Of a stretch of 20,000 nucleotides of DNA, positions 8,696 through 20,000 are shown in pieces. Origin of the DNA: an uncultured virus (IMG/VR IMGVR_UViG_3300003320_000087) (lineage: Duplodnaviria; Heunggongvirae; Uroviricota; Caudoviricetes); the IMG/VR virus record IMGVR_UViG_3300003320_000087, positions 109,917 to 129,916 of that record. One strand, 5' to 3'. The notes beneath the pieces were generated by a model. That model saw only the letters and a program-made list of their open reading frames with translations, did not search any database and was not told where the DNA came from. A program made the translations under genes and the position numbers. Numbering within the stretch: the stretch's first letter is position 1; the number at the start of each line of letters is the position of its first letter.

Positions 8696-8701
8696 TAAAT
8701 T

Positions 8702-8734: not shown

Positions 8735-8749
8735 ATTTAAGGAGATGCA

Positions 8750-8857
8750 ATGCGAATCATTGAATGGCTTTTCAAGCTGGTAATTTACACCACCTGTGGT
8801 GTTCTTGGCGGCGTGGTAGGTTTCTGGGGTTCAGTGTGGATTGTGTCACACATGTGA
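8750..8857 (+). CDS. small single-pass membrane peptide (35 aa; not in ORF track)
   Basis: RBS AAGGAG; MRIIEWLFKLVIYTTCGVLGGVVGFWGSVWIVSHM. Confidence 0.65.
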   Translation: MRIIEWLFKLVIYTTCGVLGGVVGFWGSVWIVSHM

Positions 8858-8866
8858 CCACATCAC

Positions 8867-8899
8867 GGGGTTGACGTTCAACCCCAAGCTTGTTAGACT
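8867..8899 (+). repeat. hairpin-AAGCTT element 11 with embedded promoter
   Basis: GGGGTTGA-CGT-TCAACCCC-AAGCTT; TTGACG-17-TAGACT. Confidence 0.85.
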
Positions 8900-8922
8900 T
8901 GCACCAACGAATGGAGGTAAAG

Positions 8923-9342: not shown

Positions 9343-9369
9343 TTGTAAGTATGGTACCCTAGTGAAATC

Positions 9370-9393
9370 CGTTACCCCAGAAATGGGGTAACG
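9370..9393 (+). other. intergenic GAAA-loop hairpin lacking AAGCTT (possible terminator)
   Basis: CGTTACCCCA-GAAA-TGGGGTAACG within flanking TAGTG/CACTA. Confidence 0.5.
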
Positions 9394-9420
9394 CGCACTA
9401 AACTTAGGAGATATTTTAAT

Positions 9421-9888
9421 ATGTATAAGAAGACTGCGGTAGTCGGAAGTCTGATTGCCTCAACACTGGTAATGGCTGTTCCGGGAAATGCGGAAGCCGC
9501 CACAATTCAGAGTAAGGCAGTAACCGTTGCAAAGGGCAAGATTGGTTCCCCATATAAGTGGGGTGCTAAGGGCCCAAGCAAGTTCGATTGCTCAGGTCTG
9601 ACATGGTATTCCTTCAAGCAGGCTGGTAAGAATTGGAAGTATAAGCCTACTAACGGAATGCGAAAGTATCAGACAAAGGATATTACAGTCAATGAACGTA
9701 AGCCTGGTGACCTTATCTTTTTCAGGCGCAAGGGTTCATCTGATTGGAGCCATGTTGGAATCTACGTTGGTAGTGGATACATGGTGAATGCGGTAAATGG
9801 TAACACGTATAAGGGTGTTCGCAAGGGTAAGGTAAAGGATGGCTATTGGAACAAGTATTACGTCATCGATTACCGCCGCGTAAAGTAA
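9421..9888 (+). CDS. secreted NlpC/P60 family cell-wall peptidase
   Basis: Signal peptide ending AEA; GSPYKWG, FDCSGL (catalytic Cys), PGDLIFF, HVGIY. Confidence 0.92.
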   Translation: MYKKTAVVGSLIASTLVMAVPGNAEAATIQSKAVTVAKGKIGSPYKWGAKGPSKFDCSGLTWYSFKQAGKNWKYKPTNGMRKYQTKDITVNERKPGDLIFFRRKGSSDWSHVGIYVGSGYMVNAVNGNTYKGVRKGKVKDGYWNKYYVIDYRRVK

Positions 9889-9908
9889 GACCTCAAAATC
9901 AGAAATAC

Positions 9909-9941
9909 GCGGGGTGTTTTCCCTTGACACCCCGCAAGCTA
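9909..9941 (+). repeat. hairpin-AAGCT element 12
   Basis: GCGGGGTGTT...GACACCCCGC-AAGCT-ATG. Confidence 0.75.
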
Positions 9942-10120
9942 TGAACAACCTAATTATTGCAGGAATCGCATCCTTTGTCATGGCATTTGTTTGCCTGATG
10001 GCTTCTACAATTCTAGAGGGGTTCGAAATGTTTGCTGCCGGATTTTTTGCGGCGGCTGTGTATTGGATACTTGCAGGCATGTTGCCCGATGGTGTTGACA
10101 GCCCCGAAGCAAGCGAGTAG
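9941..10120 (+). CDS. small membrane protein
   Basis: Two hydrophobic segments; start uncertain, ATG directly follows AAGCT. Confidence 0.55.
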   Translation: MNNLIIAGIASFVMAFVCLMASTILEGFEMFAAGFFAAAVYWILAGMLPDGVDSPEASE

Positions 10121-10123
10121 GGT
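10095..10123 (+). promoter_or_regulatory. HrdB-type promoter
   Basis: TTGACA-17-TAGGGT. Confidence 0.7.
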
Positions 10124-10156
10124 AGTAACCAGAAAGCTTCAATTTGAGGAGAAAAA

Positions 10157-10399
10157 ATGTATCACAAGATTGCCGCTAGGAAGTCACTCGCTGCACTGGC
10201 TAACTTCTTTATCTGTGCTGTAAATGCCTCAATTGCATGGGTTTCCTACAATGCAGGAAGCTCATTGTATGGAGTGAACATCGTTTTCAGCATCTTCAGT
10301 GGAGTCCTTGCCCTTGGTAACTTCTTCGGTTATCTTGAGGCCAAGGATAGGGCGAATGCCGAAGACATGTACAATGAGGTTTATGGCCGTCGTCGTTAG
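10157..10399 (+). CDS. membrane protein
   Basis: RBS GAGGAG; two hydrophobic segments. Confidence 0.8.
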   Translation: MYHKIAARKSLAALANFFICAVNASIAWVSYNAGSSLYGVNIVFSIFSGVLALGNFFGYLEAKDRANAEDMYNEVYGRRR

Positions 10400-10406
10400 C
10401 AATACC

Positions 10407-10426
10407 GGCCCGAAAGGGCCAAGCTT
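10407..10426 (+). repeat. hairpin-AAGCTT element 13
   Basis: GGCCC-GAAA-GGGCC-AAGCTT. Confidence 0.9.
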
Positions 10427-10443
10427 TCTGAATAGGAGAAGAA

Positions 10444-10671
10444 ATGCCTAAGGAAACTGTCAAGTACGAAATCGAGCGGATTCCCAATGGAATGTACCGC
10501 AGTTCTATCACTCGTAAGCTAAATGGCGAGTGGAAGGAAATGCATCGCGAGATTACCCACACAATGTGGGGCGGAAAGTTTCACTGTAAGCGCTGGATTA
10601 AGAAGTGGGCTAACGGAAACTACCGGCAGCACAGCTATATGAACCTTGTGACTGTTGACCGTAAGTGGTAA
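10444..10671 (+). CDS. hypothetical protein
   Basis: RBS AGGAG; 75 aa. Confidence 0.8.
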   Translation: MPKETVKYEIERIPNGMYRSSITRKLNGEWKEMHREITHTMWGGKFHCKRWIKKWANGNYRQHSYMNLVTVDRKW

Positions 10672-10683
10672 ACCGGCAACATC

Positions 10684-10705
10684 GCCCCGGAAACGGGGCA
10701 AGCTT
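10684..10705 (+). repeat. hairpin-AAGCTT element 14
   Basis: GCCCCG-GAAA-CGGGGC-AAGCTT. Confidence 0.9.
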
Positions 10706-10726
10706 CCCAACTAACTAAGGAATGTA

Positions 10727-10900
10727 ATGAAGACTTACAAGGCTCGAATTGCTGCTGTCATTCTTGTTGTCGTTGGCTTCACTGGTGCTCACGTGAGGAA
10801 CGATTGGATTGGAAATCTGACAGTTGTGGGAATGCTCATCGGTTCCTGGGTAGCGATGAATCTCATCATTGATAACATTAAGGATGAGAAGAGCAGCTAA
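10727..10900 (+). CDS. small membrane protein (57 aa; not in ORF track)
   Basis: RBS AAGGA; MKTYKARIAAVILVVVG... Confidence 0.7.
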   Translation: MKTYKARIAAVILVVVGFTGAHVRNDWIGNLTVVGMLIGSWVAMNLIIDNIKDEKSS

Positions 10901-10906
10901 AAATCC

Positions 10907-10931
10907 GCCCGGCTTTATGTCGGGCAAGCTT
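10907..10931 (+). repeat. hairpin-AAGCTT element 15
   Basis: GCCCGGC-TTTAT-GTCGGGC-AAGCTT. Confidence 0.88.
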
Positions 10932-10973
10932 TCCTTCTAGATGATAATTGGATATCAATACTAGGAGGACAAA

Positions 10974-11126
10974 ATGAAGATATGGGTTATTACGACAGAG
11001 TGCGCTTGTGGATGGTACTCTGGAGAAGAAATCGCTGGAGCCTACAGCACTGAAGAAAAGGCTAAGGAAGCCTTGAAGGAATTCAACGGAGAATTCTATT
11101 ACATCAGTGAACTGGAGGTAAAGTGA
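10974..11126 (+). CDS. small protein, STEEKAK paralog A (50 aa; not in ORF track)
   Basis: RBS AGGAGG; MKIWVITTECACG...AYSTEEKAKE. Confidence 0.75.
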   Translation: MKIWVITTECACGWYSGEEIAGAYSTEEKAKEALKEFNGEFYYISELEVK

Positions 11127-11269
11127 AGGTTTGGCTGGTAAGTGAAGGTAATTGCAACTGCTGCATGTATGTTGCGGCTGTCTTTTCAACAGAAGAGAAG
11201 GCTAAGGCTTACGAAACTGACAGCGAATTCGTAGAAATTAACTTTCACATTGTAGATGAAGGGGAATAA
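11123..11269 (+). CDS. small protein, STEEKAK paralog B (48 aa; not in ORF track)
   Basis: GTGA overlap, RBS GGAGGT; MKVWLVSEGNCNCC...VFSTEEKAKA. Confidence 0.7.
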   Translation: MKVWLVSEGNCNCCMYVAAVFSTEEKAKAYETDSEFVEINFHIVDEGE

Positions 11270-11270
11270 A

Positions 11271-11852
11271 ATGGCTAGGTTCTTTACCAGCGATACGCAT
11301 TTTGGCCATCAGCGTATTATAGAGCTGTGCAATCGCCCATTCAGTTCTGTTGAGGAAATGAATGAGGCTATGATTGAGCGGTGGAATGCAGTTGTGCGAC
11401 CGACTGATACCGTTTACCATATGGGTGATGTTGCCATGGGTAGGATTGCAGAATCTCTGCCACTTGTTGGCAGGCTGAATGGTCGTAAGAAGCTGGTTCC
11501 TGGTAATCATGACCGGATTTTCTCTGGAGAAAAGGCAAAGCAGCGAGAGCGTTTTACTCCAGAGTATGAGAAGGTGTTTCAGGAGATTCTTCCTGAGCAG
11601 GTTGCTCTGAATCTGGATGGTCGTTGGGATGGCGTCTTTCCTATTCTGTGCCATTTCCCATACAGTGGTGATTCTCATGGGGAAGACCGTTATGCTGATA
11701 AGCGCCCCATTGATGTCGGCACCCCGCTGATTCACGGTCATGTTCATGATTCATGGCAGTTTAACGGCCGGATGTTTAATGTGGGTGTTGATGTAAATAA
11801 CTTCACTCCTGTCCATGAAGATGTGGTTAGGGATTGGATTAAGAGTCTGTAA
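11271..11852 (+). CDS. calcineurin-like metallophosphoesterase
   Basis: SDTHFGH, GDV, GNHD, HFP, HGHVH motifs. Confidence 0.92.
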   Translation: MARFFTSDTHFGHQRIIELCNRPFSSVEEMNEAMIERWNAVVRPTDTVYHMGDVAMGRIAESLPLVGRLNGRKKLVPGNHDRIFSGEKAKQRERFTPEYEKVFQEILPEQVALNLDGRWDGVFPILCHFPYSGDSHGEDRYADKRPIDVGTPLIHGHVHDSWQFNGRMFNVGVDVNNFTPVHEDVVRDWIKSL

Positions 11853-11855
11853 TAT

Positions 11856-11883
11856 GATGGGGTGGAAACACCCCATCAAGCTT
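11856..11883 (+). repeat. hairpin-AAGCTT element 16
   Basis: GATGGGGTG-GAAA-CACCCCATC-AAGCTT. Confidence 0.9.
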
Positions 11884-11900
11884 CCAACAAAGGAGACATC

Positions 11901-12200
11901 ATGACCCTTTATCAGTTTTCTTGGTGGGATTTGATTCCGCTTCCGTTGCTCATTCTGGCCCTTCGTTCAATGTTTTTTCGGCGGGTTGTTGGTCAGACAA
12001 ACAACAAGGAATCAGCCGGATATATGGCATTGTACAGCCTAACATATATGGTGATTGATATCATTCGCCACCGTACAGGATATGCTGTTTTTGATGCCGG
12101 AATGTTTGCTCTTTGGGCACATTCGTGGTGGAATTCTGGTGGCGGAGATTCTGTTAAGAACTTCATTCGGAGTTTTGGATTGAAGCCCGCAGTAAATTGA
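11901..12200 (+). CDS. membrane protein
   Basis: RBS AAGGAG before ATG 11901; about three hydrophobic segments. Confidence 0.8.
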   Translation: MTLYQFSWWDLIPLPLLILALRSMFFRRVVGQTNNKESAGYMALYSLTYMVIDIIRHRTGYAVFDAGMFALWAHSWWNSGGGDSVKNFIRSFGLKPAVN

Positions 12201-12206
12201 AATACC

Positions 12207-12230
12207 GCCCAATGAAAATTGGGCAAGCTT
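12207..12230 (+). repeat. hairpin-AAGCTT element 17
   Basis: GCCCAAT-GAAA-ATTGGGC-AAGCTT. Confidence 0.9.
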
Positions 12231-12249
12231 TCTAACAACAGGAGATATA

Positions 12250-12486
12250 ATGTCTGTACAGACAACTCGAAAGACCATCTGTGATAGATGTGGTAACGAA
12301 GTTCATGCTGAATACTGGGAAATCAGAATTGGTAAGCTAAAGTGGAAGCGATATAAGAAGACGCATATTGGGCGGCTGTCTTGGATGAAGCTGCAAAATG
12401 GCAGTGGTTCGATGCTGTGTGATATGGAGCTGGACCTTTGTGTTGACTGTTCAGAATTGTTTCATGTATTTATGAGCAATAAGTAA
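12250..12486 (+). CDS. small Zn-finger-like protein
   Basis: CDRC...DLCVDC; RBS AGGAG. Confidence 0.8.
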   Translation: MSVQTTRKTICDRCGNEVHAEYWEIRIGKLKWKRYKKTHIGRLSWMKLQNGSGSMLCDMELDLCVDCSELFHVFMSNK

Positions 12487-12493
12487 ATTAAAA

Positions 12494-12511
12494 GCCCTTC
12501 GGGGCAAGCTT
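12494..12511 (+). repeat. hairpin-AAGCTT element 18
   Basis: GCCC-TTCG-GGGC-AAGCTT. Confidence 0.88.
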
Positions 12512-12561
12512 GACACAACACACAGTACAAAGATTGTCTGTGTAGCTCTGTGGGAGGATAA

Positions 12562-12744
12562 ATGAACGTAGCACGAGAGTTGAGGCGGAGGGAACATTCT
12601 AGGCCCGGACATAAGCTCAGAGACGCTACGGATGAGGTGACCAGGAAGAACGTTGACGTGACAACCCGCCGTTTTTACCGCTGCTCATGTAGTTGGTTCG
12701 GATGGTTGACAGTCATCGATGATGAGACTAGAGTGAAGCCATGA
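12562..12744 (+). CDS. hypothetical protein
   Basis: RBS GGAGG; 60 aa. Confidence 0.75.
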   Translation: MNVARELRRREHSRPGHKLRDATDEVTRKNVDVTTRRFYRCSCSWFGWLTVIDDETRVKP

Positions 12745-13055
12745 AGATTTGGCTTGATGACGAGAGAGACCCGCAAGATTGGGTGGACAATCCGAAGTCT
12801 TGGTTTTGGGTCAAGAACAGTTACGATGCAATTGAGCTTCTTGACGACATTCGTCGCAAGGGTAATTCAATTGATGTCATGTCGTTCGACCATGACTTGG
12901 GTGGTGACGACACATCTCGCCGTGTGGTATTGTGGATGTGCGAAAACGATTTCTGGCCGGATGAGTGTCGAGTGCATTCAATGAACAATGTTGGCCGTGA
13001 ATGGCTTATTGGTATGATTGACCGATATGGACCGGGAGTTTCCTATGCACTTTAA
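12741..13055 (+). CDS. cyclic-phosphate-processing receiver-domain protein
   Basis: KIWLDDERxP, SFDHDLG, HSMNxVG motifs typical of this phage receiver-like family. Confidence 0.8.
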   Translation: MKIWLDDERDPQDWVDNPKSWFWVKNSYDAIELLDDIRRKGNSIDVMSFDHDLGGDDTSRRVVLWMCENDFWPDECRVHSMNNVGREWLIGMIDRYGPGVSYAL

Positions 13056-13407
13056 GCAAATCTGCAAGTGTGGTATCGTGGAGTTCGAGTGCCGTTGTTC
13101 TGCCGAGAATAAGAGGGTTGACACGCTTATGACGTGCTCTCATGAGTGGTGGGAAGACATCATCACTGAGCTTGATGAGCAGTATGATATTGCCGCTTAT
13201 TGGGATAAGCGTCACAGGTATCTGGAAATTGACCTTCCGGCTTCCCGGCACAGCCTTGAGGTTTCGCTGACCAATGTTTATGGTTTCGTTATCTCACTGG
13301 TGATTACCAACGAAACCGGCGGGGTCATGAAGGACATAACCATATTTTCTTGCGTCAATCGAAAGAACCTTGCCACCGACATTCACAGCGTGTACAATAG
13401 CTACTGA
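13045..13407 (+). CDS. hypothetical protein with Cys-rich N terminus
   Basis: In frame with ORF 13018; GGGAG precedes ATG 13045; start uncertain. Confidence 0.7.
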   Translation: MHFKQICKCGIVEFECRCSAENKRVDTLMTCSHEWWEDIITELDEQYDIAAYWDKRHRYLEIDLPASRHSLEVSLTNVYGFVISLVITNETGGVMKDITIFSCVNRKNLATDIHSVYNSY

Positions 13408-13416
13408 AGAGGGATT

Positions 13417-13608
13417 ATGACACACGATACAGAATTCCCATCTAATTGGGATATGATGACCAGTGCTGAAAGGACTGCTTGGTTAGCTAAGTGGTTCGAT
13501 GCTAACGTAAGTAAGCATCAGAACATTGGGAACATGAAGCGTGCAAAGGCAGAACGTGAATGGAGGGCTTACCGCACTAAGAACGGTAGGGGTAAGCGCA
13601 GGAAGTAG
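13417..13608 (+). CDS. hypothetical protein
   Basis: 63 aa, RBS GAGG. Confidence 0.75.
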   Translation: MTHDTEFPSNWDMMTSAERTAWLAKWFDANVSKHQNIGNMKRAKAEREWRAYRTKNGRGKRRK

Positions 13609-13721
13609 TGCCAAGTTGTCCAAGATGCAGGAAAAGCGATAAGGTACAAAAATCAAAGTCTAGGTCCATTTTAATCAAATTCATCTGTAAGAGATGCAAT
13701 CACGAATTTGAGGCGCCTTGA
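13608..13721 (+). CDS. tiny zinc-ribbon protein (37 aa; not in ORF track)
   Basis: GTG overlapping the upstream stop; CPRC...CKRC. Confidence 0.55.
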   Translation: MPSCPRCRKSDKVQKSKSRSILIKFICKRCNHEFEAP

Positions 13722-13727
13722 TTTTGC

Positions 13728-13754
13728 GGGGGTGGGCTTTCCACCCCCAAGCTT
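13728..13754 (+). repeat. hairpin-AAGCTT element 19
   Basis: GGGGGTGG-GCTTT-CCACCCCC-AAGCTT. Confidence 0.9.
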
Positions 13755-13772
13755 GTCTACATAGGAGAAAAA

Positions 13773-13964
13773 ATGATTTCCCGTAATGGATGTATTGCTT
13801 TTGCATGTGGAGCTTTTCTACTTGCCTTCGTGAATTTTATCGCGGGATTGGGTGCTGTTGTTACTCATGACCCGTTGTGGCTTGTGGGAGTAAAGTTTGC
13901 AAGTGCAGCGATTTGGTTTGCATGTTGTGCGGTGTGGGTTGTTGGAGCCATTACCCGCGAGTAA
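13773..13964 (+). CDS. small membrane protein
   Basis: RBS AGGAG; two hydrophobic segments. Confidence 0.8.
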   Translation: MISRNGCIAFACGAFLLAFVNFIAGLGAVVTHDPLWLVGVKFASAAIWFACCAVWVVGAITRE

Positions 13965-13974
13965 CCTATTGACA

Positions 13975-13998
13975 GGCAGATGAAAGTCTGCCAAGCTA
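13975..13998 (+). repeat. hairpin-AAGCT element 20
   Basis: GGCAGAT-GAAA-GTCTGCC-AAGCTA, preceded by TTGACA. Confidence 0.8.
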
Positions 13999-14025
13999 GC
14001 ACTACCAACAGCAAGGAGGTAGGAG

Positions 14026-14466
14026 ATGCTGAACCAATATATTTGCCTAAATTGTTACAATGGCAATTGCGACGAGTGTGCTGATAAGCACAAGGTTTTC
14101 CCTGATTGTCAGCATGAATGTAACAGGCAGAAGGAAGAGGCTCGGAAGATGAACGTCCACAAGCTTGACGTAGTTGCCGAGAATGGTGTACCGTTCCGAG
14201 TGGTGGTGCTGGTTGACGGGAAGTCTGAGAATTTCAACACGGCTTCCTTGAGCAATAAGAGTCTGGTAGAGTTCTATGACAGGCGCTATGACTTCACCCC
14301 TGATGGTCAGTTTACCGGTCATCGTATCTACCTTGACACTGCTCTTGAAGCCTCTGTGTACACCATGAGCTTTGACCAGCCTTCTTGGCAGATGGACTCT
14401 CGTACTTCCCGAACGGTTCGCGATTGGTTGCACTTCCTGGTTGACAGGGAATCGGTTCGGGTGTAA
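14026..14466 (+). CDS. hypothetical protein with Cys-rich N terminus
   Basis: RBS AAGGAGGT; 146 aa. Confidence 0.75.
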   Translation: MLNQYICLNCYNGNCDECADKHKVFPDCQHECNRQKEEARKMNVHKLDVVAENGVPFRVVVLVDGKSENFNTASLSNKSLVEFYDRRYDFTPDGQFTGHRIYLDTALEASVYTMSFDQPSWQMDSRTSRTVRDWLHFLVDRESVRV

Positions 14467-14484
14467 GGTAGTAACACGTAAAAC

Positions 14485-14527
14485 GGTGGGGCAAGGTGAG
14501 ATAAGTTCCCCAAACTCCACCAAGCTT
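14485..14527 (+). repeat. hairpin-AAGCTT element 21 (imperfect long stem)
   Basis: GGTGGGG...CTCCACC-AAGCTT. Confidence 0.7.
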
Positions 14528-14533
14528 TCTAAA

Positions 14534-14910
14534 CTGCCGATGACCCCGGAATGAAAATTCCGGGCGAGGACAGCCCCAATAGCATAATCCCGGCGAATGC
14601 GCCTTTAGAATAGTAGGAGATAGCAGGTTCAAATCCTGCTGGGGTTGCTAGGACAAATCTTCTGTTAGATTGTGTCCTAAGTAAAATGACCGGCTAGCTC
14701 GTGTGCAGGAACGCTAAGGGTGCTTTCGCGGGGATTCAGTTAGAATCCCACCGAACGTTTAAAGGTCCTGTTCCTGTACTAGGCGAGGGTTAATGGGCTT
14801 AGTAGGAAATCCCCGAAAAGTCACTGATAACAATTACCGGGTAGCCCAGTTAAATAGCGAGGTGGAGACGAAAGTCGTAGAAGCCAATGACCTATTTAAC
14901 TGGGCTTTTT
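14534..14910 (+). ncRNA. structured RNA cluster (two kink-turn hairpins, tRNA-like element, multibranch domain)
   Basis: No credible ORF; many long helices; ends in a 15-bp stem plus T run. Confidence 0.55.
14572..14647 (+). tRNA. tRNA-like element with aberrant anticodon arm (identity undetermined)
   Basis: Acceptor AGCCCCA/TGGGGTT, D arm GCAT..GG..ATGC, T arm GCAGG-TTCAAAT-CCTGC; anticodon arm pairs only CCT/AGG; no encoded CCA. Confidence 0.6.
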
Positions 14911-14944
14911 GTTTGACCAAAATCGTCTGAAGGAGACAGTAAAC

Positions 14945-15133
14945 ATGATGATTCCCGCTCCCCGTGTTGCTGAGCCTACCGTATTGAAGTGCCGTGAGGA
15001 TGGCTGTGAAGGCACTTATGAGCCGTACCGAGATGGTTCGCTGTCCTGTTACTGCGGCAGCCGCTCTAACCTCACTGTGGACGATGTAGAGATTCTGAAC
15101 ATGACCATTGTGTATGAGCGTAGCGACTGCTAA
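14945..15133 (+). CDS. small Cys-containing protein
   Basis: RBS AAGGAG before ATG 14945. Confidence 0.7.
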   Translation: MMIPAPRVAEPTVLKCREDGCEGTYEPYRDGSLSCYCGSRSNLTVDDVEILNMTIVYERSDC

Positions 15134-15140
15134 GATTTAT

Positions 15141-15168
15141 GCTGGGGATGAAAATCTCCAGCAAGCTT
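15141..15168 (+). repeat. hairpin-AAGCTT element 22
   Basis: GCTGGGGAT-GAAA-ATCTCCAGC-AAGCTT. Confidence 0.9.
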
Positions 15169-15199
15169 GCAACATCGACATTCTAATTAAGGAAACAAA

Positions 15200-15412
15200 A
15201 TGGTGTTTTTCGTTCTGCTCCTGGTTCTCGGTTCGGCTTGGGTTATTTCTGCCTGGTCTTTCATGCTGTTCGTTGGTATGGTTCATCATGACATTCTTCC
15301 GGCCGTGATTCCCATTTCGTATCAGACTTCTCTTCAGATTACTGGTGTGATGCTTGCGTTCACCTTTGGCTTTGCTCTTCTTTCTGGAATTCTTCGAGAG
15401 GCTGCAAAGTAG
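15200..15412 (+). CDS. membrane protein
   Basis: RBS AAGGA; two hydrophobic segments. Confidence 0.8.
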   Translation: MVFFVLLLVLGSAWVISAWSFMLFVGMVHHDILPAVIPISYQTSLQITGVMLAFTFGFALLSGILREAAK

Positions 15413-15418
15413 TAATCC

Positions 15419-15443
15419 GGCCGGATTTATTCCGGCCAAGCTT
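15419..15443 (+). repeat. hairpin-AAGCTT element 23
   Basis: GGCCGGA-TTTAT-TCCGGCC-AAGCTT. Confidence 0.9.
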
Positions 15444-15469
15444 TCAACAACAAATGTGAGGTAAATTAA

Positions 15470-15844
15470 ATGCTATTCAGTGATGCACAGAGCCTCAATG
15501 AGGGCGACGAGATGTTCGTTACCGATGGTGTTGGTCGTGCTACTCATCAGGTGGTTACCAAGCTGAGTGGCCCATACTACAATGGATTCTCAAGCCACGG
15601 TGTCCTTGTTGTCAGGGATGAGAGCAACCAGGTTCGGGTCTACAACCTTGGTGACCTAGTGATAAAGCCTGCTGTGCCTGTTGAGGGACAAACGTGGGTT
15701 CGTAAGACTGATGGTAAGAGCCGATATGTTGCTGGTGTGACAGACAATTTTGTCATCGTAAAGCAGAGTGCCGGGGCTTCTAATGCCAGGGCATATGTGG
15801 TTGAGATGAGCCTGTTTCTGACTACGTATCGTAAGTACAGTTAG
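15470..15844 (+). CDS. hypothetical protein
   Basis: 124 aa, RBS GAGGT. Confidence 0.8.
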   Translation: MLFSDAQSLNEGDEMFVTDGVGRATHQVVTKLSGPYYNGFSSHGVLVVRDESNQVRVYNLGDLVIKPAVPVEGQTWVRKTDGKSRYVAGVTDNFVIVKQSAGASNARAYVVEMSLFLTTYRKYS

Positions 15845-15851
15845 GATTGTC

Positions 15852-16325
15852 ATGATTGGCTGTGTTGAGGATGCCGAATTCATTGCAGAATGGGATTTTC
15901 GGCATCCTCTTCCAGATGGGTGGAGTTTTGCCGGTGAAGGCGCAACACGTGTTGCAGTGATAAGCCCGGATGGAATTGTCTATAAGGTAGAGCTTAGTCC
16001 AGATGGTTCTAATTCAAACGAATATATGAACATTCAGAGGATTAAAAAGCTGCCTCCCATTAAGGGATGGGAAATTGCGGATGCCTCCCTTTACATTCTA
16101 GATAACTTCAAATCAGTCATTGCTATGGAATACATTGAAGGCAGTGATGATATTGAATGCGGTTCGTATCTTGGACCAGAGTTTAAATGCACATGTAAAA
16201 TGAAGCCTTGTGTGGCTTATGTGTGGGAGGTCACCGCTAGACTGTGGGGTGTGTGGGACCTTACAAGTGATAACATCAGAGTGCAGCCTGATGGTACTCG
16301 GATTGTCATCGATGCAGTGTCTTGA
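15852..16325 (+). CDS. minimal protein-kinase-like fold protein
   Basis: GEGATR (Gly loop), VYK, NEY, AMEYIEG hinge, DLTSDNI catalytic loop, VIDA. Confidence 0.65.
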   Translation: MIGCVEDAEFIAEWDFRHPLPDGWSFAGEGATRVAVISPDGIVYKVELSPDGSNSNEYMNIQRIKKLPPIKGWEIADASLYILDNFKSVIAMEYIEGSDDIECGSYLGPEFKCTCKMKPCVAYVWEVTARLWGVWDLTSDNIRVQPDGTRIVIDAVS

Positions 16326-16332
16326 CTGACCA

Positions 16333-16360
16333 GCCCAGTCTTGATAGACTGGGCAAGCTT
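16333..16360 (+). repeat. hairpin-AAGCTT element 24
   Basis: GCCCAGTCT-TGAT-AGACTGGGC-AAGCTT. Confidence 0.9.
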
Positions 16361-16392
16361 CAGAAGGAACCATATCCTTTAAGGAAGAGAGT

Positions 16393-16632
16393 ATGGGAAC
16401 GAAGATTCGGCACGTGACGGTAATGATTGGTAAGGTTGAGTCAGTACCATCGTCACGTTTTGCCAAGCGAATTTGTCCGGCATGCAAGACTGAGCGTTTC
16501 ATTACTCAGCGCAGTAAGTTTCTCAAGCATAATAATGGCGAAAAGGAATGCCGTGCTGTTGGCCTGACAATTGACCAGTACAATAAGCTTAACGAAGAGC
16601 TGATTGCAGCTCGTAAGGCAACTTTCAAGTAA
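16393..16632 (+). CDS. hypothetical protein with CxxC
   Basis: RBS AAGGA; CPAC...H...C. Confidence 0.75.
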   Translation: MGTKIRHVTVMIGKVESVPSSRFAKRICPACKTERFITQRSKFLKHNNGEKECRAVGLTIDQYNKLNEELIAARKATFK

Positions 16633-16642
16633 GGATATGCAT

Positions 16643-16789
16643 ATGGCTAAGGTTGTTCGTCGTCAGCAGACTCGCAAGATTCAGACTCCTCGGAGTAAGA
16701 AGACTCGCGACTATCGCAACGGCAATGACTTTTCCAATTTCAAGGGTCCTAGGTATTCTCGTAAGGATAAGTATCCTGTAGCATACTGA
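16643..16789 (+). CDS. small basic protein
   Basis: RBS AAGGA; MAKVVRRQQ... Confidence 0.7.
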   Translation: MAKVVRRQQTRKIQTPRSKKTRDYRNGNDFSNFKGPRYSRKDKYPVAY

Positions 16790-16796
16790 CTAATTC

Positions 16797-16828
16797 GCCC
16801 GGCTGTGATAAAATGGCCGGGTAAGCTT
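16797..16828 (+). repeat. hairpin-AAGCTT element 25
   Basis: GCCCGGCTGT-GATAAA-ATGGCCGGGT-AAGCTT. Confidence 0.85.
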
Positions 16829-16850
16829 CCGACAAACAATGGAGAATAAA

Positions 16851-17000
16851 ATGAGTGAGTTTGACAAGAGCGTGGATGAGCTTTTTGACACTGCTGCTCG
16901 ATGGAGTAAGGGAATTGTAGTAGCGTCTGTCGTTCTGGCCCTGGGGGTCCTGAGCGTTGTTCTTTGGGCCATTATTTCTCTGGTCCTTCACTTCACGTGA
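16851..17000 (+). CDS. small single-pass membrane protein (49 aa; not in ORF track)
   Basis: RBS GGAG; MSEFDKSVDE..., hydrophobic C terminus. Confidence 0.75.
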   Translation: MSEFDKSVDELFDTAARWSKGIVVASVVLALGVLSVVLWAIISLVLHFT

Positions 17001-17006
17001 AATTTC

Positions 17007-17032
17007 GGCGGGTTGAAAAATCCGCCAAGCTT
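17007..17032 (+). repeat. hairpin-AAGCTT element 26
   Basis: GGCGGGTT-GAAA-AATCCGCC-AAGCTT. Confidence 0.9.
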
Positions 17033-17136
17033 TAACACCATCGTAAGGAGGCAATGTGTACTGCCATTGTGGTAGACCATATCCATGCCTTGACCATTAA
17101 TCAACGAGTCCTCCAGAATATATTCTAGGGATAAAG

Positions 17137-17508
17137 ATGAAGCTTTTCAGTAAGTCAAGAGGAATTCCTGACGTTCGTAAGCCTGATTATGATTTCATCC
17201 GGGATGCTGAAAAGGAATTCCGGATGGATGACGATGGTTTTGACGAACGAATGGATGAGGCAATCCTTGAGAATTCAGATTTCAAGGAAGTCAATTACTA
17301 CAACATGGACATTGATGAACTTGATAAGTTCATCGACAAGTGTCGGGACCTTGGTTCAGAACTGAATTCAATAAAGTATAAGGATGAACTCCTTGACTTT
17401 ATCGAAAGAATGGAAAGGCGAAGGTTCCGTCTCTCTCGTCGTGACTGGGACCAACGTCATTACGATTTGCGAAACAAGATGGTGGAGCGAGGGAAGCGCT
17501 CAAACTGA
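17137..17508 (+). CDS. hypothetical protein
   Basis: 123 aa ORF on the coding strand. Confidence 0.75.
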   Translation: MKLFSKSRGIPDVRKPDYDFIRDAEKEFRMDDDGFDERMDEAILENSDFKEVNYYNMDIDELDKFIDKCRDLGSELNSIKYKDELLDFIERMERRRFRLSRRDWDQRHYDLRNKMVERGKRSN

Positions 17509-17514
17509 ATTAAC

Positions 17515-17542
17515 GGCGGGTTAGAAATAACCCGCCAAGCTG
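17515..17542 (+). repeat. hairpin-AAGCT element 27
   Basis: GGCGGGTTA-GAAA-TAACCCGCC-AAGCTG. Confidence 0.85.
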
Positions 17543-17579
17543 CAACACCAAAATAAATAATAAACCGTTAGGAATAAAA

Positions 17580-17954
17580 ATGAACCGTCGTATTACGGCT
17601 GCTGTTGTCTCTGCTGTTGCTGTCTCTGTGGTGGCTACGGGTTGTTCTGCCTCTCCTGGTCACTCTGTCAGCCGCGCGGGAATTGTGGTGGACCGCGATA
17701 TTGAAGGGCATGGCTATGAACTGGAGACCAAGAACAGTTCTGGCAAGCACGAGTTTAGTGTGAGCGCCAAGGTTTATCACGATTGCCAGAAGCGCGAATA
17801 CTACCCCTCTTGCATTAAGAGCAGCAAGAAGGACAGCGATAACCGCAAGAGCTACAAGAAGTCGAAGAAGAAGCGCTCTTGGTCTTGGACTAAGAAGAAC
17901 AAGTCTAAGAAGTCTTCTAAGGGATTTAGCTTTAAGCGGAGTAAGAGGCGCTAA
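17580..17954 (+). CDS. putative lipoprotein with Lys/Ser-rich tail
   Basis: MNRR + hydrophobic stretch + ATGC lipobox. Confidence 0.75.
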   Translation: MNRRITAAVVSAVAVSVVATGCSASPGHSVSRAGIVVDRDIEGHGYELETKNSSGKHEFSVSAKVYHDCQKREYYPSCIKSSKKDSDNRKSYKKSKKKRSWSWTKKNKSKKSSKGFSFKRSKRR

Positions 17955-17963
17955 GTAAAACCC

Positions 17964-17989
17964 GGGCGAAAGAAATTTCGCCCAAGCTT
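17964..17989 (+). repeat. hairpin-AAGCTT element 28
   Basis: GGGCGAAA-GAAA-TTTCGCCC-AAGCTT. Confidence 0.9.
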
Positions 17990-18285
17990 GCAATTTTGCC
18001 AAAAATTATGACCATCGTAACAGCAAATTCTGTGGCAGTTTTTTGGACCATCGTAAAGGGGTTCCCGGCGAGTCGGGAATGTCGGACATGCCCCGCTTCG
18101 CGGGGCTTAGCCCGTGTTTGTACCAATTTGATAGTGTTTGTACAAATATGTACCAGAATGTCCGATTTGCCCAAGGCTAGTCGGCAAGGTGGGAAACTTT
18201 ACCAAACCGTGACCAAAAAACCTTCCGTGACGTGCTATCGCGCGATAGGATGGCGCTACGCGCCACCCAAACAGGAGGTACCAAA

Positions 18286-18540
18286 ATGGCCAGGATTACG
18301 AACAACAAGCACGTTATGCACTGGAGCGGCGAGACTGTCACCATTACCCGTCGGTTTCTCAAGTCGGGCGCCGTGCGCGTTCGTGTTGTTGTGGCTGAAT
18401 CATTCAATGGTACGGAGCGTTTGAACGAATACCGCGATTACGTTGACATGCACAAGGGTGATGCTGTATATGCTCGACACATCAAAAAGTTTGAGCGTGC
18501 AATTGAGTCAGCCGCTCGCGAAGCTTGGAACGCTCGTTAG
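18286..18540 (+). CDS. hypothetical protein
   Basis: RBS AGGAGGT before ATG 18286. Confidence 0.8.
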   Translation: MARITNNKHVMHWSGETVTITRRFLKSGAVRVRVVVAESFNGTERLNEYRDYVDMHKGDAVYARHIKKFERAIESAAREAWNAR

Positions 18541-18552
18541 GCATACCTAACC

Positions 18553-18579
18553 AGGGAGCCGGACAACCGGCTCCCTTTT
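18553..18579 (+). terminator. intrinsic terminator
   Basis: GGGAGCCGG-ACAA-CCGGCTCCC-TTTT after the stop codon. Confidence 0.75.
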
Positions 18580-18607
18580 CTATGCCTGCTAAAAGGTTGA
18601 ATTCTGT

Positions 18608-18639
18608 ACATCCACAGCTGTGGATAAACCTGTGGATAA
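18608..18639. promoter_or_regulatory. DnaA-box cluster
   Basis: TGTGGATAA (reverse complement TTATCCACA) at 18619 and 18631; imperfect inverted ACATCCACA at 18608. Confidence 0.65.
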
Positions 18640-18883
18640 CTTCGCTACTCTCTGCAATGTTACTTTACAGTATGTGAGAAAAGCTCTGTACGCCCTTCTA
18701 AGAGCCTCCCAGGGATGCCAATAGGCGACCACCCCAGGACACCCGCGAAAGGCCGTTAGACGCGATTTTCACGTTGTGTAGTATCTGATGGAGTGTCAGA
18801 GAACCAACGAAAGCGCAGGTCAGACACTGTTTTTCAATCTGACAGCGTGTCAGGTTACCGGCCAGTGGTCACAGACTGCTGAC

Positions 18884-18892
18884 TGTGGATAA
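18884..18892. promoter_or_regulatory. DnaA box
   Basis: TGTGGATAA, perfect consensus. Confidence 0.55.
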
Positions 18893-19105
18893 CTTTCTTT
18901 ACCTAAACGTTACGAAGACACGCCGACATAGGGGTTGACAATCTTTAAAAAATTTGCATAGGGGGAAAAGCCGGCCACTTAGGTAAAATTTTGGTAAAGA
19001 AAATCAGAAATGGTTGACACAGACTGAGAGTGCCTGTATTTCGCGCACACTCACACACTCGCCGCATGTTGGGAGCGGCTAGGTTACTCGCGAGTTAACT
19101 AACGA

Positions 19106-19121
19106 TGTGACGCACGTCACA
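19106..19121. promoter_or_regulatory. CRP/GlxR-type binding site
   Basis: TGTGA-CGCACG-TCACA, perfect TGTGA-N6-TCACA. Confidence 0.6.
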
Positions 19122-19226
19122 CAAATAGCATGGGAAAGGTTAGGCATGCTAAACATGGCCTCTGACCTGCGAAAACTCACAAAACCGCAGGTCAGAGCAT
19201 AGGCTAGTGTTTACCTCAGAACGAAC

Positions 19227-19296
19227 GGCCCGGAGGAAAGCCCCGCAAGGGGCGAGTACAAAGGAAGTCGCGGTTACTTGAGAACTAAATAGCGGG
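19227..19296 (+). promoter_or_regulatory. rRNA-operon-leader-like antitermination element (hairpin + boxA-like)
   Basis: GCCCGGAGGAAAGCCCC-GCAA-GGGGCGAGTACAAAGGAAG...GTTACTTGAGAACTAAATAGCG closely matches my recollection of Streptomyces rrn leaders. Confidence 0.65.
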
Positions 19297-19640
19297 ATTC
19301 AGAAACACATTACGCACAAGGAAACTCGCGGGTCACTGCCTAGAGGTCTAGCTAGGAAATCACCCCTTACATTCTGCGAGTTGAATTGACATTCTCGGCA
19401 CTTTGCCAGGATTAGCGAACGGGCGGTTCTTCCCTTTCCGATATGCCAGGAAATATCGACCGTCGAATATAGTGCGATTCCTTTTGGGATAGCGGTAGAT
19501 ATCCAATGCCACTAAAGGGATTCAAGTAGCGAAATCCAGCGGGTGTTTTGTTTGTCAGTCGAAAGTGCGCCGTGTCCCGATTATCTAGGGACTGTGGCTT
19601 TAGACGCTTACCCTTTCGAGCGTCTAGTGTCCACAAAGGA
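19297..19640 (+). ncRNA. putative large structured RNA / 5' leader
   Basis: No + strand ORF; at least seven helices, several with G-U pairs. Confidence 0.45.
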
Positions 19641-19663
19641 ATTAGGGAAGAAAGTGAGTCATC

Positions 19664-19993
19664 ATGACGACTGCCGCTCCTGCCAAGAAGACTGCCGCCC
19701 CGCGCAAGCGGGCGACTAAGAAGGCTGTCAGCACTCCTCAGACGGCCGAACAGACGACGACTGTGTCTGTTGTTGACCCGGACGTCTACGTGCCCCCTAC
19801 GGGGCTTGCAGAGGGTTTCCAGAGTGATGGGTCCGGCCCGCTGTTGGATGACCGTCTGACTCCGCGTGCGCTGGAGAACCTGACAGAGCTTGCCACGGAC
19901 GGAAACACGAACACGGCCCGAAAGTACTGGATTGCCGTGCTGGCAAAGTACGGCGTCACGGTTCCTTTTGTGCCGGTTGACGAAAGCGAGTAA
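19664..19993 (+). CDS. hypothetical protein with basic Ala/Lys/Thr-rich N terminus
   Basis: 109 aa ORF; higher GC than upstream genes. Confidence 0.8.
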   Translation: MTTAAPAKKTAAPRKRATKKAVSTPQTAEQTTTVSVVDPDVYVPPTGLAEGFQSDGSGPLLDDRLTPRALENLTELATDGNTNTARKYWIAVLAKYGVTVPFVPVDESE

Positions 19994-20000
19994 AACCGCC

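What the first reader, a model, noticed from the sequence alone, without database searches (positions are those of the whole stretch)
19227..19296. Phage mimic of the host rRNA-operon antitermination leader
Seen: GCCCGGAGGAAAGCCCCGCAAGGGGCGAGTACAAAGGAAGTCGCGGTTACTTGAGAACTAAATAGCG. From memory, not verified by search, Streptomyces rrn leaders read approximately GCCCGGAGGAAAGCCCGAGAGGGTGAGTACAAAGGAAGCGTCCGTTCCTTGAGAACTCAACAGCG. The flanks match closely, while the hairpin differs in sequence but keeps pairing and a GNRA loop. No 16S gene follows. Established: rrn boxA leaders load NusB/NusE/NusA/NusG to make RNA polymerase fast and termination-resistant. Inference: the phage hijacks host rRNA antitermination for a long transcript, possibly to read through hairpin elements or pull DNA in, or it sponges Nus factors. 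The leader hairpin (GCCCC-GCAA-GGGGC) has the same architecture as the AAGCTT elements, hinting at a link between the two systems.
Basis: partly seen in the sequence, partly recalled or inferred. Interest (0 to 1): 0.85.

Follow-up and report, generated by a model that had tools for sequence, protein, structure and literature searches.

The report
Phage copy of host rRNA leader
A large Streptomyces phage carries, in front of a block of small unknown genes, a close copy of the short RNA signal that its host places before its ribosomal RNA genes, so it probably borrows the host's keep-transcribing machinery, and many other Streptomyces phages do the same.

Summary
In two complete host genomes the element occurs 6 times each, always 144 or 183 nt upstream of a 16S gene. 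The phage has one copy and no rRNA gene follows it.

The element is not a one-off. The host leader hits 87 phage records, all Streptomyces phages of at least two unrelated groups. The hairpin is kept by compensatory changes and the TTGAGAACT..AA.AG core is invariant. The next gene lies on the same strand in 21 of 21 records.

Best reading (0.55): a functional rrn-type Nus-factor loading site heading a roughly 6-kb block of small genes. No function was tested.

The link to the AAGCTT hairpins is not supported: they lie in another transcription unit.

New here: the leader runs into a conserved, covarying RNA domain of about 257 nt (19313-19569), which is the only part covered in two RNA libraries.

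This scan had already noted the same element on a near-identical phage (e1-6061986). No paper that I could search describes it.

The parts
18935..18964 (+). Upstream promoter-like element: TTGACA, 18 nt, TAGGGG
   Evidence: Read. A TTGACA is conserved at the same place in Gilson. Not called by the E. coli-type scan.
19014..19042 (+). Second promoter-like element: TTGACA, 17 nt, TATTTC
   Evidence: Read. Conserved in Sham and Gilson. Not called by the scan.
19106..19121 (.). Palindrome TGTGACGCACGTCACA (TGTGA-N6-TCACA type), a likely regulator site
Evidence: Present in the window, Gilson, Sham, Forrest and TunaTartare. Binding was not tested.
19162..19195 (.). Inverted repeat CTGACCTGCG ... CGCAGGTCAG just upstream of the -10-like hexamers
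   Evidence: The repeat and the following TAGTGT are shared with BillNye and Muntaha, which lack an intact rrn-like leader.
19200..19210 (+). Overlapping -10-like hexamers TAGGCT and TAGTGT; the likely proximal promoter, with no good -35
   Evidence: TAGTGT is also the -10 of a host rrn promoter (TTGACA, 18 nt, TAGTGT at L034:764-793). The best -35 in the window is 4 of 6 and the consensus scan found none. Inferred.
19228..19239 (+). Conserved 5' flank GCCCGGAGGAAA of the leader
   Evidence: Identical to the host leader. Columns are at least 90% conserved in A1.
19240..19253 (+). boxB-like hairpin GCCCC-GCAA-GGGGC
   Evidence: Hairpin at the same place in host and phage copies with different sequences. 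4 of 4 pairs show compensatory changes; 91.8% of cells are paired against 62.3% in shuffles.
19254..19267 (+). Conserved block GAGTACAAAGGAAG
   Evidence: Identical to the host. AGTAC.AAAGG is kept in most phage copies.
19278..19294 (+). boxA/boxC-like core TTGAGAACTAAATAGCG
   Evidence: Eleven invariant columns across 37 host and phage sequences (T53 T54 G55 A56 A58 A59 T61 A63 A64 A66 G67). The boxA/boxC assignment rests on homology to the host rrn leader and on recalled mycobacterial work cited in PMC2724277.
19295..19312 (+). Phage-specific conserved continuation GGATTCAGAAACACATTA
   Evidence: Nearly invariant in 9 related phages and absent from host leaders.
19313..19569 (+). Conserved structured RNA domain closed by a terminal helix (19313-19317 with 19565-19569) and a long helix of about 24 bp (19385-19416 with 19529-19559)
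   Evidence: RNAalifold on 9 phages. 16 of 63 pairs have changes on both sides against 4.4 +/- 1.5 in shuffles and 1-4 in slid controls. Held-out Muntaha is paired in 43 of 48 cells and Blueeyedbeauty in 63 of 63. RNA-library contigs cover only 19254-19572. No Rfam family matches. MFE z-scores are unexceptional.
19593..19635 (+). Invariant 16-bp hairpin containing TAGTGT; a possible U-less terminator/attenuator or a gene-proximal promoter
   Evidence: Helix 9 is identical in 8 of 8 phages that have the region. Its function is not determined.
19664..19993 (+). First ORF of the downstream block (109 aa, no family)
   Evidence: Homologous to the first gene after the element in Gilson.

Best explanation
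The element is a functional phage-borne copy of the Streptomyces rRNA-operon leader: a boxB-like GNRA hairpin, a conserved purine-rich block, and the boxA/boxC-like core TTGAGAACT..AA.AG. It is transcribed by host RNA polymerase from host-type promoters in the large non-coding control region (18680-19660). As nascent RNA it is proposed to recruit the host rrn antitermination factors to the elongating polymerase: NusB-S10 on boxA, NusA on boxC, and NusG. Transcription of the long untranslated RNA that follows, and of the roughly 6-kb block of about 14 small genes running to the genome end, would then be fast and resistant to Rho and to hairpin terminators, with no phage N-like protein needed.

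Shown: homology, host specificity to rrn, conservation as RNA, position and orientation.

Inferred: the promoter used in this phage, Nus binding, and antitermination.
For: (1) Homology: 57/72 identity to a host rrn leader, E 1e-11.

(2) In hosts the element is rrn-specific. The covariance model R1 finds 6 copies in each of 2 complete Streptomyces genomes, and all 12 end 144 or 183 nt upstream of one of the 6 + 6 16S genes. 8 of 8 full host loci have 16S downstream.

(3) It is selected in phages. A host leader query hits 87 of 50,697 phage records, all Streptomyces phages. These include Arquatrovirinae of about 50 kb, Loccivirinae of about 130 kb, Ibantik, and two uncultured contigs.

(4) RNA-level constraint. 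The hairpin sequence differs (GCCCC/GGGGC, GGCCC/GGGCC, GCGGG/CCCGC, GGGGGG/TCCCCC, CCCG/CGGG) but pairing is kept. 4 of 4 pairs have double changes; there are 23 such cells against 7.5 in shuffles, reached by 0 of 500 shuffles; slid controls are lower. The core has 11 invariant columns while the spacer varies freely.

(5) Position. The next annotated gene is on the same strand in 21 of 21 fetched records. A perfect TTGACA-17-TA...T promoter precedes the element in 10 of 25 phage copies, and a TAGAGT hexamer (the host rrn -10) lies within 110 nt upstream in 18 of 25. In Arquatrovirinae the element lies about 700 nt from the right end and heads the leftward gene set, which includes an Ocr-like antirestriction gene.

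(6) Gilson-type phages also copy the host's tandem promoter layout (CTGATAGAGTCGGAGACGCA and the GGAA-rich inter-promoter stretch).

(7) Established knowledge: boxA is sufficient to prompt formation of the rrn antitermination complex, which blocks Rho and interferes with intrinsic termination (PMC13753749, passages). boxC is a specific NusA site in the M. tuberculosis rrn leader (PMC2724277, passages).
Against: No experiment or transcript map exists for this phage.

The window has no canonical promoter directly upstream. The consensus scan found 0 and the best -35 is 4 of 6.

The downstream block shows no excess of intrinsic-terminator-like hairpins (11 against 8.1 +/- 3.4 in shuffles; only weak AT-rich intergenic hairpins). 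What would be read through is therefore unknown, and Rho sites cannot be predicted.

The relative BillNye has no copy anywhere in its genome (best E 0.17), and Muntaha has only a degenerate one (26 bits, TTGTTAACT). The element is thus dispensable in some lineages.

An invariant promoter-like hairpin with TAGTGT lies between the leader and the first ORF (19593-19635), so the ORFs may not depend on leader-containing transcripts.

The core resembles the E. coli boxA consensus only loosely. Its boxA identity rests on homology to the host leader.

R1 was built from most of the sequences it then scored, and alignment A2 is fitted to the model, which favours pairing.
Confidence: 0.55

Rival explanations
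1. Miniature rRNA-operon mimic. In this phage family the main client of the leader is not the mRNA but the conserved structured RNA of about 257 nt that follows (19313-19569). The Nus complex would protect this untranslated RNA from Rho and act as a folding chaperone for its long-range closing helices. The long duplex would then be cut, as RNase III cuts rRNA stems, to release a stable RNA and a separate early mRNA.
For: The domain is conserved and covaries: 16 of 63 pairs have double changes against 4.4 in shuffles. Two held-out phages keep the pairing, 43 of 48 and 63 of 63 cells. It is closed by a terminal helix and contains a duplex of about 24 bp. Contigs from two RNA libraries of one study cover only 19254/19274-19562/19572, not the promoters or the ORF. 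Leader-trailer helices and boxA are the defining rRNA-operon elements (PMC10250234, abstract). Other notes of this scan describe similar cassettes in unrelated phages (e1-5917808, e1-5643193; not tested here).
Against: The fold is no more stable than shuffled sequence (z +0.76 and -0.29). The structure was derived from the alignment on which it was counted. Only 9 to 11 sequences are available, several of them near-duplicates. The RNA contigs are of depth 2-2.5, come from one study, cannot show ends, and could be DNA carry-over. The roughly 50-kb phages have the leader without such a domain (about 120-nt UTR), so this cannot be the general function. Muntaha keeps the domain with a degenerate leader.
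Confidence: 0.2
2. Promoter and regulation mimicry. The phage copied the whole rrn promoter-leader module to obtain rRNA-like promoter strength and growth-rate or stringent control. The leader is retained for initiation, promoter escape or 5'-end stability, not for antitermination.
For: Phage copies carry the host rrn -10 (TAGAGT in 18 of 25). In Gilson-type phages the host's tandem promoter arrangement and initial transcribed sequence are also present. The match of Lannister to the host extends 99 nt through the promoter.
Against: The most invariant part in phages is the distal core TTGAGAACT..AA.AG, 50-60 nt into the RNA, together with a covarying hairpin. This points to an RNA-protein site, not a DNA promoter element. 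The window phage kept the leader although it carries a different, BillNye-type promoter.
Confidence: 0.15
3. Decoy. The abundant leader RNA titrates Nus factors away from host rrn operons to shut down host ribosome synthesis.
For: High similarity to the host site. Possibly an abundant RNA.
Against: There is one copy per genome. It always sits at the head of a same-strand operon (21 of 21 records), which a free decoy would not require. No data support it.
Confidence: 0.05
4. A functionless remnant of recombination with a host rrn operon.
For: Phages do pick up host DNA. No 16S follows.
Against: The element is kept at the same position in 87 records from unrelated phage groups. It shows compensatory hairpin changes and an invariant core amid diverged flanks.
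Confidence: 0.03

Closest known systems
Streptomyces rRNA-operon (rrn) leader upstream of 16S
   Same: The sequence is homologous (57/72). The order is the same: flank, GNRA hairpin, GAGTACAAAGGAAG, TTGAGAACT core. It lies about 20-35 nt downstream of an rrn-type -10 in most phage copies.
   Different: No rRNA follows. After the core the phage sequence switches to phage-specific conserved RNA and protein genes. The hairpin sequence and the 5' half of the boxA-like region differ.
E. coli rrn antitermination site (boxB-boxA-boxC) and the rrn antitermination complex (NusA, NusB, S10, NusG, SuhB, S4)
   Same: The hairpin comes first, followed by single-stranded conserved boxes, and the site lies just after tandem promoters. 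No phage protein is needed in principle: boxA is sufficient for complex formation (PMC13753749, passages).
   Different: The actinobacterial core only loosely resembles the E. coli boxA UGCUCUUUA (quoted in PMC2724277). Here it precedes protein-coding genes. Factor binding was not tested.
Lambdoid nut sites with N protein
   Same: A phage uses a host Nus-dependent RNA site at the start of early operons.
   Different: In lambda nut the order is boxA, spacer, boxB, and N binding to boxB is required (PMC2724277). Here the order is that of rrn, the whole site is a copy of the host leader, and no N-like protein is recognisable among 16 downstream ORFs (not conclusive).
M. tuberculosis rrn nut-like site, where NusA binds boxC
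   Same: An actinobacterial leader with a boxC that NusA binds specifically (PMC2724277 citing Arnvig 2004 and Beuth 2005). The phage core is of this type by homology through the Streptomyces leader.
   Different: The two primary papers could not be read. The correspondence of individual bases rests on recall and was not tested.
BoxA sites outside rRNA (suhB and other genes)
   Same: Precedent that NusB/E sites regulate non-rRNA transcripts (PMC5725501, abstract).
   Different: Those are host genes and can repress translation or promote Rho action. Here a full leader copy sits on a phage.

Membership tests
Streptomyces rrn leader (nut-like region) | Sequence homology to host rrn leaders | tested here: met
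   57/72 identical, E 1e-11; scored 74.7 bits by R1, which was built from it and 36 other copies.
Streptomyces rrn leader (nut-like region) | Hairpin 5' of the conserved boxes, kept by compensatory change | tested here: met
   4 of 4 pairs have double changes; 91.8% paired against 62.3% in shuffles. The alignment is model-fitted.
Streptomyces rrn leader (nut-like region) | Invariant single-stranded core TTGAGAACT..AA.AG | tested here: met
   Eleven invariant columns in 37 sequences.
Streptomyces rrn leader (nut-like region) | Lies just downstream of an rrn-type promoter on the transcribed strand | tested here: inconclusive
   In the window there are only -10-like TAGGCT/TAGTGT hexamers with a weak -35. 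It is clear in relatives: TTGACA-17-TAGAGT in 10 of 25 copies.
Streptomyces rrn leader (nut-like region) | Followed by a 16S rRNA gene | tested here: not met
   No rRNA in the window or in the next 12 kb. It is therefore a leader copy in a new context, not an rrn operon.
Nus-dependent processive antitermination site | NusB-S10 binds boxA and NusA binds boxC | not testable with these tools
   Needs EMSA, ChIP or CLIP with Streptomyces factors.
Nus-dependent processive antitermination site | Confers read-through of Rho-dependent or intrinsic terminators | not testable with these tools
   Needs reporter or Term-seq experiments. The downstream block shows no excess of predicted intrinsic terminators.
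Lambdoid nut/N system | Order boxA, spacer, boxB | tested here: not met
   The hairpin precedes the boxA-like core, as in rrn.
Lambdoid nut/N system | Phage-encoded N-like RNA-binding antiterminator | tested here: inconclusive
   16 downstream ORFs have no informative Pfam or PHROG match. The rest of the genome was not examined.
rRNA-operon architecture (leader-trailer helix enclosing a structured RNA) | Long-range complementary helices closing the RNA that follows the leader | tested here: met
   Helices 19313-19317/19565-19569 and 19385-19416/19529-19559 show covariation. Stability is unexceptional.
rRNA-operon architecture (leader-trailer helix enclosing a structured RNA) | The enclosed RNA accumulates as a processed stable product | tested here: inconclusive
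   RNA-library contigs cover only 19254-19572 in two runs of one study, at depth 2-2.5.

The most novel reading that the evidence does not exclude
Streptomyces phages of this family have rebuilt a miniature rRNA operon. Tandem host-type promoters and a copied rrn Nus-loading leader drive a conserved structured RNA of about 257 nt (19313-19569), closed by leader-trailer-like helices. This RNA accumulates as a stable species, and the early mRNA is attached behind it. The copied leader would then serve mainly as Rho shield and folding chaperone for a phage non-coding RNA of unknown function. The same leader was spread by recombination among unrelated Streptomyces phages as a portable, protein-free antitermination module.
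Probability: 0.3. Interest if true: 0.8.

Novelty: new variant of a known kind. Interest (0 to 1): 0.68.

Why it matters
Processive antitermination in phages is textbook for lambda, where a phage protein (N) is needed. Here a whole host rRNA leader is copied onto phage genomes, seemingly with no phage factor. This is seen in 87 sequenced Streptomyces phages of unrelated groups, and none of the records examined annotates it.

If functional, it would be a simple, transferable way for phages to obtain rRNA-grade transcription of early genes. It would also be a natural tool for studying the poorly known actinobacterial rrn antitermination complex, and a candidate part for high-level expression of long operons such as biosynthetic clusters in Streptomyces.

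The structured RNA behind it adds a candidate new phage non-coding RNA. All of this is directly testable in laboratory Streptomyces strains.

Tried and rejected
- Rfam (gathering threshold on the window; E up to 10 on 18600-19700; gathering on the next 12 kb) gave nothing at the element or in the RNA domain. It returned only a marginal tRNA hit at 14573-14646, noise hits, and three tRNAs on the minus strand.
- The E. coli-type promoter scan found no promoter in 18500-20000.
- A loose viral-contig pattern gave mostly chance hits: 8 of 119 loci passed a stricter filter. A pattern for the RNA domain gave 15 loci, of which 5 were true and already known. The exact pattern gave one near-identical contig.
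- The 365-nt untranslated region was not found in 201 sampled Streptomyces genomes. This search had no positive control, so it is weak.
- MFE z-scores of the leader plus domain and of the domain alone were +0.76 and -0.29, so there is no thermodynamic signal.
- A second hairpin, AAGGAA...TTCCTT, that I saw by eye in the host leader is not kept in the phage copies (by eye). I dropped it.
- A mini-ORF starting at the TTG of the core has no conserved stop (by eye). I dropped it.
- Sequencing runs: many DNA runs hold about 0.18 of the sampled words. Only four runs were laid, so no habitat claim is made. Parts of the stretch without cover in the RNA runs carry no weight on their own.
- Literature: searches found no paper linking boxA or the rrn leader with actinophages. 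The phiJoe paper and the phiScoe paper do not mention rRNA, leader or antitermination (find on the whole text).
- Smith et al. 2013 (J Bacteriol, R4-like phages) and the two M. tuberculosis NusA papers are not held. They could bear on priority and on the boxA/boxC assignment.

Full report
**What the window is.** The window is the last 20 kb of a 129,916-base virus record (G000:C1:109917-129916). Its relatives are Streptomyces phages of about 125-131 kb of the Stanwilliamsviridae/Loccivirinae: Kenrey, Faust, Sham, Gilson, Annadreamy and others. A 99.9% identical uncultured contig (L125) shows that the window's end continues into the record's first bases after 79 missing bases. The right physical end of phage Gilson corresponds to about G000:C1:5424.

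**The observation.** The quoted sequence is there, starting at 19228.
All 80 listed are from Streptomyces, and many lie at contig ends, as expected for collapsed rRNA operons.
- In 8 of 8 host loci with full flanks, a 16S gene starts 156-203 nt downstream.
- A local blastn of a host promoter-leader region against the whole window gives one significant match: 57/72 identical, E 1e-11, at 19223-19294.
- A covariance model (R1) built from 25 phage and 12 host copies finds 6 copies in each of two complete host genomes. All 12 end 144 or 183 nt upstream of one of the 6 + 6 16S genes.

In the host the element is therefore an rrn-specific leader. The phage record has one copy, and no rRNA gene lies in the window or in the next 12 kb.

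**It is a family, not an accident.**
- A 396-nt host promoter-leader query finds 87 of 50,697 phage records, all Streptomyces phages. The window's own 161 nt find 55.
- The carriers fall into unrelated groups: Arquatrovirinae of about 50 kb (Likavirus, Camvirus; Lannister, Zemlya, Joe and others), Loccivirinae of about 130 kb, the 56-kb phage Ibantik, and two uncultured contigs of 63 and 92 kb.
- The records do not annotate the element. In a few records (Ibantik, Joe, Beuffert) a doubtful small CDS overlaps it.
- Across 37 aligned copies the core TTGAGAACT..AA.AG has 11 invariant columns, while the spacer before it varies freely.
- The hairpin changes sequence but not pairing. On 26 distinct phage copies, 4 of 4 pairs have changes on both sides, 91.8% of cells pair against 62.3% in shuffles, and 23 double-change cells compare with 7.5 in shuffles (reached by 0 of 500 shuffles). 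Slid controls are clearly lower. Caveat: that alignment is fitted to the model.
- Loops are mostly GNRA (GCAA, GAAA, GAGA).

These are signatures of an RNA that binds proteins, not of a decaying relic.

**Context.**
- In 21 of 21 fetched phage records with a strong copy, the next annotated gene is on the same strand.
- In the roughly 50-kb phages the element lies about 700 nt from the right end. It sits directly after a perfect TTGACA-17-TAGAGT promoter and heads the leftward gene set, which in Lannister includes an Ocr-like antirestriction gene.
- A perfect -35/-10 pair precedes 10 of 25 phage copies. The host rrn -10 hexamer TAGAGT lies within 110 nt upstream in 18 of 25.
- Gilson-type phages even copy the host's tandem-promoter layout and initial transcribed sequence.
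- The window phage is a mosaic. It has the leader, but its proximal promoter region (inverted repeat 19162-19195 plus TAGGCT/TAGTGT) is of the type found in BillNye and Muntaha. BillNye has no leader anywhere in its genome, and Muntaha has a degenerate one.
- A simple E. coli-type scan calls no promoter here. The promoter used in this phage is therefore inferred, not shown.
- Further upstream lie two TTGACA-containing promoter-like elements, a TGTGA-N6-TCACA palindrome and a DnaA-box-like TGTGGATAA.

**What the leader runs into.**
- Downstream, the + strand carries about 14 small ORFs, from 19664 to about G000:C1:5300. The run ends at a strong 11-bp bidirectional hairpin at 5524-5550, after which genes mostly turn to the minus strand.
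- Of 16 ORFs tested, 14 match no PHROG and 2 match families of unknown function. Pfam gives one sub-threshold hit. Small ORFans of this kind are what early host-takeover blocks often look like; no timing data exist.
- Terminator-like hairpins are not enriched in the block (11 against 8.1 +/- 3.4 in shuffles).

**The structured RNA between leader and first ORF.** About 365 nt are untranslated, with very conserved blocks.
- RNAalifold on 9 phages predicts a domain from 19313 to 19569. It is closed by a terminal helix (19313-19317 with 19565-19569) and contains a long helix of about 24 bp (19385-19416 with 19529-19559).
- 16 of 63 pairs have changes on both sides, against 4.4 +/- 1.5 in shuffles and 1-4 in slid controls.
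- Two phages not used to derive the structure keep it: Muntaha in 43 of 48 cells with 9 double changes relative to the window, and Blueeyedbeauty in 63 of 63.
- Against it: the fold is no more stable than shuffled sequence (z +0.76 and -0.29). The structure was counted on the alignment it came from. Several sequences are close relatives.
- Rfam has no match.
- In two RNA libraries of one study, the only contigs on the 1.3-kb stretch cover 19254/19274 to 19562/19572. That is the distal leader plus this domain, not the promoters or the ORF. Depth is 2-2.5, contigs cannot show ends, and DNA carry-over is possible, so this is a hint only.
- An invariant 16-bp hairpin containing TAGTGT (19593-19635) lies between the domain and the first ORF. 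It could be a U-less terminator or a gene-proximal promoter.

**Mechanism.** Established knowledge:
- boxA in nascent rrn RNA binds NusB-S10 and is sufficient to prompt formation of the rrn antitermination complex. That complex blocks Rho and interferes with intrinsic termination (PMC13753749, passages).
- boxC is a specific NusA site in the M. tuberculosis rrn leader (PMC2724277, passages).
- Leader-trailer helices and boxB/A/C are the cis elements of rRNA operons (PMC10250234, abstract).
- NusB/E sites also act outside rRNA (PMC5725501, abstract).

By homology to the host leader, the most likely mechanism is that the phage RNA loads the host complex onto host RNA polymerase at the start of this unit. 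This would give fast, Rho-resistant transcription of a long untranslated RNA and a poorly coupled string of small genes, with no phage N-like protein.

I put this at 0.55. The rivals are:
- an rRNA-operon mimic whose main client is the structured RNA (0.2; compatible with the first);
- promoter and regulation mimicry (0.15);
- a Nus decoy (0.05);
- a relic (0.03).

- The hairpin-AAGCTT elements are real: 39 AAGCTT against 7.3 expected, most of them right after a GC-rich hairpin and before a ribosome-binding site. All lie at 675-18521, upstream of the leader on the same strand. The 5.5 kb downstream holds one AAGCTT, inside an ORF. They belong to another transcription unit, and the shared GC-stem/GNRA-loop look is generic.
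- Transcription-driven DNA entry does not fit this family, since the unit points towards the genome end. The geometry would allow it in the roughly 50-kb phages, but nothing tests it.

**Comparison and novelty.** By sequence the element is a member of the Streptomyces rrn-leader family in a new context. It fails the 'followed by 16S' criterion, so it is not an rrn operon. It works like an rrn antitermination site and unlike a lambda nut site, because the order is hairpin then boxA and no N is recognisable.

I found no paper linking boxA or rrn leaders to actinophages (searches; whole-text find in PMC5311408 and PMC10276819). Smith et al. 2013 on R4-like phages could not be read.

This scan had already noted the same element on a near-identical phage (e1-6061986). 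It has also noted rRNA-operon-like cassettes in unrelated phages. Those notes are unchecked leads and do not count as independent support.

New here:
- the breadth of carriers (87 records, at least two unrelated phage groups);
- the covariation test on the hairpin;
- the one-to-one host rrn control;
- the natural loss and degenerate variants;
- the mosaic promoter;
- the structured RNA domain with its RNA-library hint.

**Verdict.** Novelty class: new variant of a known kind. Interest 0.68.

Noticed in passing
window 675-18521: Hairpin-AAGCTT elements. AAGCTT occurs 39 times against 7.3 +/- 2.6 expected. Most copies directly follow a GC-rich hairpin (often with a GNRA loop) in the gaps before + strand genes. 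Candidate phage-specific promoter, processing or terminator signal of the upstream unit.
   Followed up: partly
window 18884-18892: TGTGGATAA, reverse complement of the DnaA-box consensus (recalled). Gilson has two tandem CTGTGGATAA at the equivalent place. The control region may also hold an origin or DnaA-dependent control. Also noted in e1-6061992.
   Followed up: no
window 19106-19121: Perfect palindrome TGTGACGCACGTCACA (TGTGA-N6-TCACA, Crp-type), present in the window, Gilson, Sham, Forrest and TunaTartare.
   Followed up: no
window 19162-19210: Inverted repeat CTGACCTGCG/CGCAGGTCAG plus TAGTGT is shared with BillNye and Muntaha, which lack an intact leader. The window phage therefore combines one lineage's promoter with another's leader (mosaic). 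A related CAGGTCAGA word also occurs at about 18817.
   Followed up: partly
window 19593-19635: 16-bp hairpin (with TAGTGT in its 3' arm), invariant in 8 of 8 related phages, just before the ribosome-binding site of the first ORF. Terminator/attenuator or promoter; unresolved.
   Followed up: partly
window 14573-14646: Marginal Rfam tRNA hit (31.7 bits against a gathering score of 29) that ARAGORN does not call. Possibly a degenerate or tRNA-like element.
   Followed up: no
L124 (G000:C1) 2441-2773: A 110-aa ORF in the leader-driven block has a sub-threshold match to the ribosomal protein L7/L12 C-terminal domain (24.0 bits against a cut-off of 25.9). Curious next to an rRNA-leader mimic but unproven.
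   Followed up: no
L124 (G000:C1) 5524-5550: Perfect 11-bp stem TCCCCACACCC/GGGTGTGGGGA with T-runs on both strands, a bidirectional terminator-like hairpin. It marks the end of the + strand block, close to where Gilson's genome ends.
   Followed up: no
window 20000 / G000:C1:1: The record's two ends are adjacent in a 99.9% identical contig (L125), with 79 bases missing between them. The record is thus a collapsed or permuted assembly, and its ends are not the physical ends.
   Followed up: yes
W05 (Faust) 369-424 and 130263-130318: Two identical weak model hits imply a direct terminal repeat of roughly 770 bp in Faust. The leader lies outside it.
   Followed up: no
window 18700-19999: About fifteen DNA runs from soil, root and plant samples each hold about 0.18 of the sampled words of this stretch. 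One conserved sub-segment seems far more widespread than the rest. Which one was not determined for those runs.
   Followed up: partly
L152 and L167 (IMG/VR contigs of 63 and 92 kb): A further, unclassified phage lineage carries the leader (GCACGGAGGAA..., hairpin, TAGTACAAAGGAAG, TTGAGAACTCAACAGTGGATA) near a contig end.
   Followed up: no
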